From NCBI GenBank assembly GCA_963752155.1, contig CAVVXH010000010.1:416001-480000 (forward strand): a stretch of DNA of 64,000 nucleotides, in the 5' to 3' direction. A program made the translations under genes and the position numbers. This document shows positions 12,678 to 20,617 of the stretch, in pieces. A model generated the notes under the pieces. It was not told the DNA's origin. It did not search any database and saw only the letters and a program-made list of their open reading frames with translations. The stretch is from an uncultured Parachlamydiaceae bacterium. GTDB lineage: Bacteria; Chlamydiota; Chlamydiia; Chlamydiales; Parachlamydiaceae. Numbering within the stretch: position 1 is the first letter of the stretch; every line of letters starts with the position of its first letter.

Positions 12678-15600
12678 ATGTACACAGATATGGCTTTAAC
12701 ATTGAAACAAAGTATTTTGGGCGCTCCTCCTAATCAAAGGTCTACAAATTTTGAAATGAAACAAAGTATTTTTGACGCTCCTGATACAAAATTTTCAAAT
12801 GATGTGATCTTCCATTCTTCATTTTGTGAGGTAGAAAAGAAAGTCGATCGTTGGCTCACTCGCTTTAAATATTCCAATGACCAATCCGTTGTTCAAGATC
12901 TCTATCTTTTCTACTTGTTAGCTTCAAAAAAATTTCTTGACCATCGGTACCCTTCTCACCTTTCTAAATTATTTTTATCGATCCACTTGATGCAGAAAAC
13001 ATTGGCGCAGAAGGTCGCTTTTTCTCCTCAAATATTACATGTTAAGGTGCGTTGGTTGCCAGGTATTTTAAAATTTCCTTTTTCTAAACGATCTGTTCTT
13101 GGGTGCTTGGTCTGCTATAACGCGTTAGATAAATATGAATTATTTGATGAAGAAAATCTTTCCCTAGCCTTTCAGAAGCAATATCCTGATATTAGATTGG
13201 TTAAAGAATCCCTATACCAACATACAACGAAAAATAAAAATCTTAAAGTTCATTATTTTGAAGTAGAAAAAAAAGATGGTTCAGATTTTTCTCTTGATCA
13301 GCAAAATTTGATTAGAAATAATGTCGAAGAGAGAGTGCGTAATAGCATTCAAAAACTCTCTCCTTCTACTTTTATGAAGCGAAATGAAGAAGAAACCTAT
13401 AAAACTATTTTGGTCTTAAGCAACGAAATTAGTTCTTTAGAAGATTTACCGCAAGCAGTGATTAACTTAGATGAGCATTCAGGAAATGAAATCATTTTTC
13501 AAGTTGTGCTTGTCCTCCCGGCCCCCTTTCACAATTTTTCTCTAAAAGAACGTTTTGTTGAATGCACTTTTGTTCCAAAACGGTTGGCAACTGTCAGGCA
13601 TTTGGATGATCATCCCATACAAGCCCATGTTTTCTCATTGCACCTTAGCCGCTCTTCAGCCTTTTTAAGAACTGATGGATCATTGGATTTTAATATAGCG
13701 AGGCAAAAAGTCGGGACTCTTCTTCAGTCAGCCATTGGGGCATTTCGAGATTATAATGGGGGGCTTTTGATTAAACAACAAGAGCATTTGGAAAAATTCA
13801 GAGGCGCTTTCCCAGAAGCTGATCAAGAGATTTTGGAAAAGTTTTTCTATTCGATTGCCCCTTTGCAAAAACAAGCGATTTTAGATCAAGAAATTCTATT
13901 TTTATTTTTTAAATTCTTTTTAGAGCATCGAAAAGAAAAACTACAGAAAAAGATTGATTTTATTTTCATCGATTCAAAAATAGAAGAGAATAGATATATT
14001 TTTGTAAAAGGGAATGATTGCTCATTGGGTGACACAATCGATTCTTTTATCCGTGATCACTTTTTTCAATCGCATGAAATTGTTTATAGCCTTTTAAATA
14101 CCCTAGAAGGAGTTTTGTTTACTGCCGTTTTATTAAACCCTACAAAAGAAAAAGAACTCTTTTTTACTAAAAACTTAAAGCAAAAGCTAAGAGACTGCCA
14201 AAAAAAGATTGAGGGAAAAAATGTCTTAAAAATAGGTGTCGAATACATGCCTGTTTCTTTAGATCCACGTATTGGGGTAGATAACCTATCGGCTGATATG
14301 ATCTATCTACTTTTCGAAGGTTTAATGCGTTACGATGAAAAAGAGCAAGTGGTCAATGGAATGGCCCAATCGATCGAAATTTCTCCTGATGCTAAGCAAT
14401 ATATTTTTAAACTCAGACAGGCATTTTGGAATGATGGGACTTCTGTGACAGCCCATGATTTTGAGTATGCATGGAAAAAGATCCTCTCGCCGGATTTTAA
14501 AACAATTATTGCCGAAGTGTTCTATCCCATTAAAAATGCCATGAAAGCCAAGCAGGGGAAAGTCCCTCTTGAAAGCGTTGGTGTCCAAAGCATTGATGAT
14601 CGCACGCTTAAAGTGGAACTTGAACATCCGACGCCCTTTTTTTTGCAACTGACTGCACTCACTTCTTATTCTCCTATCCATCGAACCATCGATCAAAGAA
14701 GACCGCAATGGTCCTATGAGTGTGAGTCTAACTATCCCTGCAATGGTCCCTTTCAATTAAAAATTAACCAGTCCAATCAAGGATTTCAACTCATTCGAAA
14801 TCCTTTTTATTGGAATGTGAGTTATGCTAATTGGGATCAAATCAACCTAATTCAAGTAGCTCCCTCTCAAGCCCTCCATGCTTTTCAAAATGAGGAAGTG
14901 GACTGGATTGGCAATCCGTTTGGAGCGTTTCATTCTAAATTTACTCCTAAAAAAAGGGGGGAAGTTTTTGTTTTTCCGAATAACTGGGTTTGCTGGCAAG
15001 TTTTTAATACGTCATGTCCCCCCTTTCATTCTCGTAAACTCAGAGAAGCCTTGGGTTATGCCATTGATCGTGAGAGTATTGTCTCCAATGCGTCTTTACC
15101 TTTAAATCCTGCCTTTTCACCATTTTTGTATCGACAATGTTACATTAATCGCCAGGTCGATTTTCCGACATTTGACCCCATTAAAGCGCGACAATTATTT
15201 CATGAGGCGCTCAATGAGTTAAATTTATCCATTGATGATCTCCAACCTTTAACATTGATCTACAATGAGGGGGAGATTCGAGAATACACGGCTCATTGTT
15301 TAAAAATACAGTTTAAGGAAACCTTAGGCCTAGAATGTGAGCTGAAATCGCTTCCTTGGAATAAGCTTTTTAATCAAATGCACTCAGGAAATTTCCAATT
15401 AGGACTCATTAGTTGGAGTTCGCCTATAGATGATCCATTACATCAGCTTAATTATTTCCGGTTTAATATAGCCAATGTTGCCCATTGGGAGCATTCTGAT
15501 TATCAAAATTTGTTGCACTTAAGTGAACAGGAAATCAATACTTTTCAACGTTCTTCCTATCTGATTAAAGCTGAAAGGCTACTCTGTTATGAAATGCCTG

Positions 15601-15722
15601 TCATTCCTATATTTTATCAGCCTTCTCTAGGTTTAGTTAAAAACGATCTTCAGGTTGTACTCAATCTCTCAGGCACCTTTAATATAGCCAAATCTTTTAG
15701 CCAAGAGCCTAATCTTTCTTAA
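12678..15722 (+). CDS. OppA-like peptide-binding domain (SBP family 5) fused to a ~515-aa uncharacterised N-terminal region
   Basis: C-terminal half has SLDPR, LFEGL, WNDGTSVTAHDFEYAWK, NGPFQLK, KLREALGYAIDRE, EMPVIPIFY; no signal peptide visible. Confidence 0.85.
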   Translation: MYTDMALTLKQSILGAPPNQRSTNFEMKQSIFDAPDTKFSNDVIFHSSFCEVEKKVDRWLTRFKYSNDQSVVQDLYLFYLLASKKFLDHRYPSHLSKLFLSIHLMQKTLAQKVAFSPQILHVKVRWLPGILKFPFSKRSVLGCLVCYNALDKYELFDEENLSLAFQKQYPDIRLVKESLYQHTTKNKNLKVHYFEVEKKDGSDFSLDQQNLIRNNVEERVRNSIQKLSPSTFMKRNEEETYKTILVLSNEISSLEDLPQAVINLDEHSGNEIIFQVVLVLPAPFHNFSLKERFVECTFVPKRLATVRHLDDHPIQAHVFSLHLSRSSAFLRTDGSLDFNIARQKVGTLLQSAIGAFRDYNGGLLIKQQEHLEKFRGAFPEADQEILEKFFYSIAPLQKQAILDQEILFLFFKFFLEHRKEKLQKKIDFIFIDSKIEENRYIFVKGNDCSLGDTIDSFIRDHFFQSHEIVYSLLNTLEGVLFTAVLLNPTKEKELFFTKNLKQKLRDCQKKIEGKNVLKIGVEYMPVSLDPRIGVDNLSADMIYLLFEGLMRYDEKEQVVNGMAQSIEISPDAKQYIFKLRQAFWNDGTSVTAHDFEYAWKKILSPDFKTIIAEVFYPIKNAMKAKQGKVPLESVGVQSIDDRTLKVELEHPTPFFLQLTALTSYSPIHRTIDQRRPQWSYECESNYPCNGPFQLKINQSNQGFQLIRNPFYWNVSYANWDQINLIQVAPSQALHAFQNEEVDWIGNPFGAFHSKFTPKKRGEVFVFPNNWVCWQVFNTSCPPFHSRKLREALGYAIDRESIVSNASLPLNPAFSPFLYRQCYINRQVDFPTFDPIKARQLFHEALNELNLSIDDLQPLTLIYNEGEIREYTAHCLKIQFKETLGLECELKSLPWNKLFNQMHSGNFQLGLISWSSPIDDPLHQLNYFRFNIANVAHWEHSDYQNLLHLSEQEINTFQRSSYLIKAERLLCYEMPVIPIFYQPSLGLVKNDLQVVLNLSGTFNIAKSFSQEPNLS

Positions 15723-15728
15723 TTTAAG

Positions 15729-20103: not shown

Positions 20104-20235
20104 CGTTTCACAGTGACTTTAGACTTTTTGATTGGGGATCACAGCGTATTTTTGCAGTTTTTTTGTTAATATCAACATTGAGCTTAACTTAAAAAAAAGA
20201 TTCCATAACTAAAAAGTCTGAAGTCATGTGAAACG
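20104..20235. repeat. Imperfect ~25-bp inverted repeat immediately upstream of lanB
   Basis: cgtttcacagtgactttagacttttt (20104-20129) versus aaaaagtctgaagtcatgtgaaacg (20211-20235). Confidence 0.7.
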
Positions 20236-20365
20236 CATCAACGAAAGAATTAATTCAGTGTGACTTATCCTCAGACCACATGATCCCTATATGAGAGCTC
20301 ATGTGGTTTGATCCTGTAAGCGGGCGCATAAACCCACTTCTTTAGGTTTGACAAATTCCTTGTAA

Positions 20366-20617
20366 TCAACCTGGTCCAGTCATTTTAGATATAAAGTCCT
20401 GAACCTTTATTTCCCTAGCTTTGTAATCAACAGCATAAACATCAACATCCTCGTTCAGGCAAATCTTTTTCTCGAAGAGCCTTGGATGTTCTGATGATAA
20501 TTCACTTGCTTGAGGTAAAATTCCTTTTCCTTTGAAATTTTCCTTCGTTGTCTCCTTTCTATTCACATTCTCTTGGATATTGTTAGATGATCCAAATGTA
20601 ACACCTCTTAGTTCCAT
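20366..20617 (-). CDS. Small hypothetical protein upstream of lanB (possibly frameshifted at its 3' end)
   Basis: 83-aa ORF with a strong aaggagtga RBS; same strand as lanB. Confidence 0.6.
   Translation of the reverse strand: MELRGVTFGSSNNIQENVNRKETTKENFKGKGILPQASELSSEHPRLFEKKICLNEDVDVYAVDYKAREIKVQDFISKMTGPG

What the first reader, a model, noticed from the sequence alone, without database searches (positions are those of the whole stretch)
12678..20617. Orphan full-length LanB converging on a signal-less OppA-fusion / MATE operon: candidate new RiPP or peptide-signalling system in a chlamydia
Seen: an intact 1021-aa LanB with both glutamylation and elimination motifs. Its 3' end overlaps a MATE exporter by 76 bp, and the MATE gene starts 6 nt after a giant OppA-domain fusion. 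No LanC cyclase, LanT ABC exporter, YcaO or protease lies anywhere in the 64 kb. Established: class I lanthipeptide clusters normally pair LanB with LanC, and PEARL enzymes lack the elimination domain present here. Inference: this may be a system that makes uncyclised dehydro-peptides (or dehydrates a protein substrate), exports them through MATE and senses them with a cytoplasmic peptide-binding protein.
Basis: partly seen in the sequence, partly recalled or inferred. Interest (0 to 1): 0.72.

Follow-up and report, generated by a model that had tools for sequence, protein, structure and literature searches.

The report
Ringless lanthipeptide cassette in environmental chlamydiae
Some environmental chlamydiae carry a four-gene cassette, likely mobile, in which an intact lanthipeptide dehydratase has no ring-forming partner enzyme and sits beside a tiny glycine-tailed precursor, so it likely makes a short, unringed dehydrated peptide that a neighbouring peptide-binding protein is predicted to recognise inside the cell.

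Summary
The 83-aa ORF upstream of lanB (20366-20617, minus) is a LanA-derived precursor. Across 22 relatives it keeps one Thr/Ser 19-22 residues after the leader Tyr, then a short tail ending in Gly; only 5 have a Cys after it. Of 19 LanB genomes among 73 family genomes, 15 have LanC; the four without all carry this cassette (two are 98-99% complete). LanB keeps 12 of 12 NisB key residues (dN/dS about 0.18) and forms a clade nested in LanC-paired chlamydial LanBs, so LanC was lost. Precursor, LanB, fusion and MATE orthologues occur in the same 5 of 73 genomes, and low synonymous divergence suggests transfer as a unit. One genome has six precursors, each facing its own fusion copy, with one LanB. 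The ACT-OppA fusion and MATE are older: elsewhere they flank an SH2-like gene with no LanB. Best reading: LanB makes a linear dehydrobutyrine mini-peptide read by a cognate cytoplasmic receptor. Dehydration, binding and export are untested; signal versus toxin-immunity is open. Not found in eight literature searches.

The parts
20366..20617 (-). LanA-like precursor, 83 aa: long polar leader, Y-x-x-D motif (Tyr61), single conserved Thr80, tail Gly-Pro-Gly; no Cys after the Thr
   Evidence: family profile cross-hits canonical chlamydial LanA weakly (best E 3e-5 among 22, reverse 1e-5 among 10)
20661..20690 (-). Conserved promoter-like element of the precursor (TTGACT at 20685-20690, 73 nt before ATG) with AGGAG-like ribosome site downstream
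   Evidence: TTGA[CT]T 70-74 nt upstream in 8 of 10 precursor genes by script, 68 and 71 nt in the other two counted by eye; background 100 of 2072 genes in a comparable 37-nt window
20270..20346 (-). Two stem-loops between precursor and lanB (possible transcript-stabilising or attenuating element)
   Evidence: z -2.4; unrelated hairpins also follow the precursor in G133, G201, G374; function inferred
17027..20092 (-). Full-length class I LanB dehydratase, glutamylation and elimination domains intact
   Evidence: 12 NisB key positions kept in the window, 11 invariant and 1 at 19 of 20 in alignment A1; dN/dS 0.17-0.19
15729..17102 (+). MATE-family transporter, coupled to the fusion, 3' end overlapping lanB
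   Evidence: dN/dS 0.12-0.26
12678..15722 (+). Signal-less fusion: three ACT-like alpha/beta domains (about aa 90-505) resembling the regulatory region of large glutamate dehydrogenase, then a complete OppA-type binding domain (about aa 512-993) lacking OppA's Asp419 and Arg413 anchors
   Evidence: 7JSR E 8e-7; 7A1D Z 10.1, rmsd 2.6, 107 aligned

Best explanation
This is a four-gene cassette, likely moving between chlamydial genomes as a unit, in which an intact LanB that lacks a LanC partner likely dehydrates the one conserved Thr of its LanA-like precursor to give a short, ringless glycine-tailed peptide that the signal-less ACT-OppA fusion is predicted to bind as a cognate cytoplasmic receptor and that MATE would export. 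Shown: gene anatomy, LanC absence in the genomes searched, intact and purifying-selected LanB, precursor family and its conserved Thr/Gly tail, co-occurrence, one-to-one precursor/fusion pairs in G110. Inferred from LanB chemistry: tRNA-Glu-dependent glutamylation and anti-elimination giving (Z)-Dhb. Inferred without test: leader removal by a housekeeping protease (a cut just before the Dhb would leave a 2-oxobutyryl cap, recalled from Pep5), binding by the fusion, output through its ACT-like domains, export by MATE, and a signalling role. History, inferred from trees: a normal lanA-lanC-lanB cluster docked beside an older fusion-SH2-MATE operon; lanC and the SH2 gene were lost and the core shrank.
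For: LanC in 15 of 73 family genomes, all among the 19 with LanB; the 4 LanB genomes without it are G000, G133 (99% complete), G110 (98%), G374 (88%); the fifth cassette genome, G201, has one LanC inside a separate canonical cluster. LanC-less LanBs form one clade (SH 100, stem 0.34-0.35) sister to the lanA-lanC-lanB cluster of G367. Precursor family, close fusion (69-85%) and close MATE (67-83%) are in the same 5 of 73 genomes. 22 of 22 precursors keep Thr (20) or Ser (2) and end in Gly; 5 of 22 have a Cys after it, against 2-10 Cys in 21 of 21 canonical chlamydial cores, which my filter required to have at least 2. G110: 6 of 6 precursors converge on their own fusion copy, with one LanB and one cassette MATE. 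Cassette pS to G133/G201 is 0.38-0.49 against 0.71-0.79 for gyrA, gyrB and the core paralogue; flanks differ between genomes. Cassette fusions are one clade on a long stem (0.49). 12 of the 18 full-length clade LanB hits share an exact contig length with a close fusion hit (indirect).
Against: Nothing biochemical was tested. The fusion-MATE pair exists without LanB or precursor in 0-of-49-LanB loci, including genomes with no LanB at all (G188, G118, G264), so its ancestral ligand is something else. The loss of Asp419/Arg413 is shared by those LanB-free fusions, so it is not specific to a blocked ligand. Columns extra-variable in the cassette clade are spread evenly (27 of 468 N-terminal, 26 of 492 binding domain): no clear pocket diversification. 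The fusion has no DNA-binding or catalytic output domain. Precursor and fusion paralogue relationships in G110 are only partly congruent. No protease is in the cassette. The five genomes are kin and not independent. The window's genome is 80% complete and no periplasmic OppA was found in it, although Opp/Dpp ATPases are.
Confidence: 0.42

Rival explanations
1. Toxin and self-protection: the dehydro-peptide is an electrophilic antimicrobial or anti-host agent; each fusion sequesters its own variant and MATE pumps it out.
For: One-to-one pairs in G110, variable tails, horizontal spread; parent clusters are lantibiotic-like.
Against: Tails are tiny, uncharged and Gly-rich; a 1000-aa multi-ACT protein conserved across the order is an unusual immunity protein; precursor and fusion are on opposite strands.
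Confidence: 0.22
2. Different end product: the whole precursor, or a long piece of it, is the active species; Dhb is a covalent handle that cross-links to a target or to the fusion, or the invariant C-terminal Gly is used for conjugation or lactone closure, perhaps after type III secretion.
For: All 22 end in Gly, 18 in Gly-Gly; leaders before the Tyr are 42-65 aa against 11-48 in canonical LanAs; no protease or ABC exporter in the cassette; polar N-termini like type III substrates (weak).
Against: G201's precursor repeats a Pro-Gln-Leu-Thr-Thr-Gly-Ser-Gly-Gly-Ser unit six times, which suggests short released cores; leaders are generally polar; no conjugating enzyme is linked.
Confidence: 0.16
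3. Neighbours only: lanA-lanB works as a ringless RiPP pair, while fusion-MATE rides on the same island with its own unrelated ligand.
For: Fusion-MATE is widespread without LanB; SH2-less fusion-MATE also occurs without LanB in 4 loci; tandem duplication alone could copy precursor/fusion pairs.
Against: Arrangement kept across three genera while all flanks changed; five extra pairs in G110 kept under purifying selection (precursor dN/dS 0.16-0.53); parallel long stems on both trees.
Confidence: 0.15
4. Decaying class I cluster, or LanC supplied from an unassembled locus.
For: Window genome 80% complete; G201 does have a LanC; the window's tail is the joint shortest.
Against: LanB dN/dS 0.17-0.19 with key residues kept in about 20 lineages; no LanC in 98-99% complete genomes; 17 of 22 precursors have no Cys to cyclise after the Thr.
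Confidence: 0.05

Closest known systems
Class I lanthipeptide clusters (NisB 4WD9/6M7Y, MibB-type 5EHK, 9G04; chlamydial lanA-lanC-lanB clusters found here)
   Same: Full-length LanB with both domains and anti-eliminase Arg (Arg837 = NisB Arg826); leader Tyr motif homologous to the chlamydial Y/F-D-L-D motif; precursor directly upstream; direct ancestry by tree.
   Different: No LanC, mostly no Cys after the single Thr, 3-11 residue tail (one repeat form), no linked ABC exporter or protease; linked ACT-OppA fusion and MATE.
Linaridins (linear Dhb peptides; recalled)
   Same: Predicted product is linear and dehydrated.
   Different: Dehydration here by tRNA-dependent LanB, not LinE/G/H-type enzymes; core far shorter.
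Thiopeptides, goadsporin, pyritides, PEARLs (LanB-type enzymes without LanC; recalled, partly PMC9486935 section 9)
   Same: LanB chemistry used without a LanC.
   Different: Those use split LanBs with YcaO or cycloaddition enzymes, or lack the elimination domain; here one full-length LanB and no YcaO in 5 of 5 genomes.
Rap-Phr / RRNPP peptide-receptor pairs and SgrR-type cytoplasmic SBP5 sensors (recalled)
   Same: Adjacent paralogous peptide/receptor pairs; an OppA fold used without a signal peptide.
   Different: Receptor is ACT-like plus OppA with no TPR or HTH; peptide is predicted to be enzymatically dehydrated; binding is not shown.

Membership tests
Class I lanthipeptide | Full-length LanB with catalytic residues | tested here: met
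   residue list from PMC4341554 and PMC9486935 passages, Arg464 recalled
Class I lanthipeptide | LanC cyclase in cluster or genome | tested here: not met
   0 of 4 genomes, two 98-99% complete; search positive in 15 other family genomes
Class I lanthipeptide | Precursor with class I leader motif | tested here: met
   Degenerate Y-x-(L/V)-D motif; weak reciprocal profile hits; position upstream of lanB in 4 of 5 genomes
Class I lanthipeptide | Core with Cys positioned to form (Me)Lan | tested here: not met
   5 of 22 have a Cys after the Thr, none in the window
Thiopeptide / azole RiPP | YcaO and split LanB | tested here: not met
   YcaO 0 of 5 genomes, control rang in 5 of 14; LanB is one chain
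PEARL | No elimination domain | tested here: not met
   Lant_dehydr_C present with Arg794, Arg837, His976
Linaridin | LinE/G/H-type dehydration enzymes | not tested
   None among the four cassette genes; genomes not searched for them
Periplasmic OppA of an ABC importer | Signal peptide, linked permease, Asp419/Arg413 anchors | tested here: not met
   No hydrophobic N-terminus in 17 of 17 checked; no permease beside the window copy; Pro916 and Leu910 at the anchors, Asp in 2 of 21
Peptide signal-receptor pair | Cognate binding and a regulated output | not testable with these tools
   Needs binding and response assays
Linear dehydro-peptide RiPP | Dehydrated, unringed product made in vivo | not testable with these tools
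   Needs mass spectrometry

The most novel reading that the evidence does not exclude
Chlamydiae have turned a lantibiotic pathway into a private signalling code: one LanB stamps a single dehydrobutyrine on a family of mini-peptides, each read by its own cytoplasmic ACT-OppA receptor that elsewhere works with a bacterial SH2-like protein. This would be a new RiPP class (LanB-only, ringless) and a first peptide signal-receptor system in obligate intracellular chlamydiae.
Probability: 0.3. Interest if true: 0.9.

Novelty: new variant of a known kind. Interest (0 to 1): 0.74.

Why it matters
It would show that a class I dehydratase can be kept, under selection and spreading, for a ringless one-modification product, a minimal RiPP that is easy to test in E. 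coli. It gives six natural peptide/partner pairs in one genome for a direct specificity test. It also exposes an apparently undescribed order-wide ACT-OppA / SH2-like / MATE module and widespread lanthipeptide clusters in chlamydiae, where cell-to-cell signalling and secondary metabolism are little known.

Tried and rejected
Complex prediction of fusion (aa 62-1005) with precursor (aa 30-83) gave no verdict. Metagenome contig scans found no further cassette loci (57 LanB loci, best 44% identity). A degenerate fusion-motif scan of genome contigs returned only G201, G110 and G133 loci and missed G374, so it is incomplete. Rfam gave only sub-threshold hairpin matches. Selenocysteine read-through of the precursor's TGA was rejected: no tRNA-Sec among 36 tRNAs and the stop aligns with relatives' ends. 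The nearby NHLP-type exporter was rejected as a cassette part (0 of 4 other genomes); the Gly-Gly ends resemble a double-glycine motif but nothing follows them. Pocket diversification test was inconclusive. SH2-like gene not found in 5 of 5 cassette genomes (one search had no positive control). A promoter pattern of mine was mis-specified and matched nothing. Two long profile hits (P0261, P0263) were dropped from the precursor count as unrelated repeats. One phylum genome (G005) was not scored. Two papers I wanted (NisB structure, B. subtilis OppA) are not held. Earlier scan findings: none.

Full report
Observation. The three long ORFs, the 6-nt gap and the 76-bp overlap are as described. Pfam assigns both LanB domains, MatE and SBP_bac_5. 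The window lies in an 80%-complete genome, G000; protein databases label its relatives Parachlamydiaceae.

LanB is intact. Alignments to NisB (NisB numbers counted by hand from the printed chain) map Arg14, Tyr80, Arg83, Arg87, Thr89, Asp121, Asp299, Trp616, Arg786, Arg826 and His961 to positions 15, 75, 78, 82, 84, 117, 295, 614, 794, 837 and 976; Arg464 (461) and Trp616 were placed by motif, Arg464 from recall. In 20 close LanBs (alignment A1, which includes P0141 of the sister group) 11 of these 12 columns are invariant and one is kept in 19. The importance of these residues is from passages of PMC4341554 and passages plus section 9 of PMC9486935, which also marks Arg826 as the anti-elimination type. 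dN/dS against four relatives is 0.17-0.19.

LanC is missing by loss. LanB matches occur in 43 of 400 phylum genomes (partial hits included). Of 41 loci examined (the window and the 40 best), 34 have a LanC-family neighbour, usually with a Cys-rich precursor bearing a Y/F-D-L-D leader. Five loci lack it and share one layout: small ORF, lanB, facing MATE and fusion (window, G201, G133, G110, G374); the other two are a contig end and G075. In the whole family, 19 of 73 genomes have LanB and 15 of 73 have LanC; all 15 are LanB genomes, and the four left are G000, G133, G110 and G374. G201's single LanC belongs to a second, canonical cluster. Trees put the cassette LanBs in one clade of 20 (five with known context, 15 database proteins placed by sequence) sister to G367's lanA-lanC-lanB (SH support 100, midpoint root, no bootstrap). 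YcaO was found in none of the five.

The substrate. The 83-aa ORF at 20366-20617 belongs to a family found in exactly those 5 of 73 genomes, ten copies (the profile was built from these copies). Protein searches added 12 more. All 22 have Thr (20) or Ser (2) 19-22 residues after the leader Tyr, by a rule I set after viewing the alignment; tails are 3-11 residues, except G201's six-fold repeat; all end in Gly, 18 in Gly-Gly; 5 have a Cys after the Thr. The family cross-hits canonical chlamydial LanA weakly. A TTGA[CT]T element about 70 nt upstream and a ribosome site are shared, and G110's displaced lanB sits behind the same element. Contig lengths tie three of the added peptides to clade LanBs and one to a fusion; this is indirect.

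The fusion. The model is confident (pLDDT 85.6). The C-terminal half is a full OppA fold, closest to B. subtilis OppA. The N-terminal half has three alpha/beta domains whose best match is the ACT-like region of the 180-kDa glutamate dehydrogenase (that model used six sequences, pTM 0.40). OppA's Asp419 and Arg413, which hold peptide ends (passages of PMC6305025), are Pro916 and Leu910. This protein is not peculiar to the cassette: its N-terminal half matches in 67 of 73 family genomes, mostly as a roughly 650-aa form without the binding domain, and in 113 of 400 phylum genomes at a strict cut-off. Of 49 non-cassette fusion loci that I fetched (a selection from those lists), 40 carry an SH2-like gene and a MATE, 32 in one strand order; none carries LanB or a precursor. 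The SH2 label is a lead: Pfam E 4e-4 to 0.013 in 3 of 5 tested, below cut-off, and 29% of the top Atlas clusters. Four loci have fusion-MATE with neither SH2 nor LanB. Cassette fusions form one long-stemmed clade of 21.

Coupling. G110 has seven cassette-type fusions; six face their own precursor and the seventh leads the MATE; it has one LanB. Synonymous differences between the window and G133 or G201 are 0.38-0.49 per site for lanB, fusion and MATE, but saturated (0.71-0.79) for gyrA, gyrB and the core paralogue; for G110 0.59-0.64 against 0.77-0.79; for G374 the cassette is saturated and no baseline was taken. Congeners lack the cassette and flanks differ. This points to transfer of the genes together. 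It shows linkage, not function.

Mechanism. Dehydration of the conserved Thr follows from LanB chemistry (I put it near 0.75). A ring is unlikely as the common product. What is released, by which protease, and whether fusion and MATE handle it are inferred. I commit to a signal-receptor reading at 0.42; toxin-immunity, a covalent or secreted whole-precursor product, mere co-travel and decay are the rivals. Against my reading: the older LanB-free module, no output domain, no pocket signal beyond a few positions (611, 911, 916, 923), partial incongruence of G110 pairs, and no experiment.

Literature. Eight full-text searches listed nothing on this cassette, a LanB-only ringless RiPP, or a chlamydial SH2 module; I saw only listings and abstract starts for those hits, except PMC11317633, whose passages report a lanthionine synthetase as specific to one chlamydia. 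The library lacks most subscription papers, and I read no supplements; Table S6 of PMC9486935 could list such clusters. Statements on linaridins, Pep5, PEARLs, pyritides, Rap-Phr and SgrR are recalled.

Verdict. Real, conserved and apparently undescribed: a new variant of class I RiPP biosynthesis joined to an uncharacterised chlamydial sensor-transporter module. Interest 0.74.

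Noticed in passing
L076, L078-L084, L153-L192: Order-wide ACT-OppA fusion / SH2-like (about 120 aa) / MATE module in 40 of 49 loci; G118 has three tandem SH2-like genes; a 1160-aa fusion form lies near ordinary OppA genes in two other families.
   Followed up: partly
L037-L073, L092-L095, L194-L203: Canonical lanA-lanC-lanB clusters (some with two LanC or LanD) are common in chlamydiae; an ABC ATPase motif pair was found within about 8 kb in only 6 of 45 LanB loci, so their export route is open.
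   Followed up: partly
G000:C10:407042-415116 (L219), just before the window: NHLP-type exporter operon (HlyD, C39-ABC, ABC, TolC); no precursor identified near it.
   Followed up: partly
L034:11949-12380: G201 precursor carries six tandem copies of a 10-residue Thr/Ser/Gly core with no Cys.
   Followed up: partly
window 10200-10296, 12235-12334, 12425-12513, 24009-24097; 11946-12045: About 100-bp palindromic repeat with matches in 207 bins genome-wide, and a second palindrome in 32 bins; MITE/REP-like.
   Followed up: partly
window 22734-23702 (-): 322-aa ORF with motifs that recall an ADP-ribosyltransferase toxin A domain (from memory); no Pfam or NCBIfam hit.
   Followed up: no
window 4087-9223 (-): RHS-repeat gene present as two overlapping ORFs (731 and 1056 aa); RHS genes also lie near the fusion in G133, G407, G320.
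   Followed up: no
window 35098-49626 (-): Run of genes resembling type III secretion chaperones, translocators and substrates (recalled resemblance).
   Followed up: no
L085, L086, L088, L089: A family of about 350-aa proteins without Pfam hit precedes four G110 fusion copies.
   Followed up: no
L064:7837-11593: G075 LanB with no adjacent LanC, preceded by a 154-aa ORF that recalls a nitrile-hydratase-like leader; a separate LanC-less arrangement.
   Followed up: no
G110, G374: The near-universal 650-aa core paralogue was not found in these two cassette genomes, nor in G367.
   Followed up: no
window 12690-12790: Short imperfect duplication at the start of the fusion (two M/L-K-Q-S-I-x-x-A-P units) makes its true start uncertain.
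   Followed up: no
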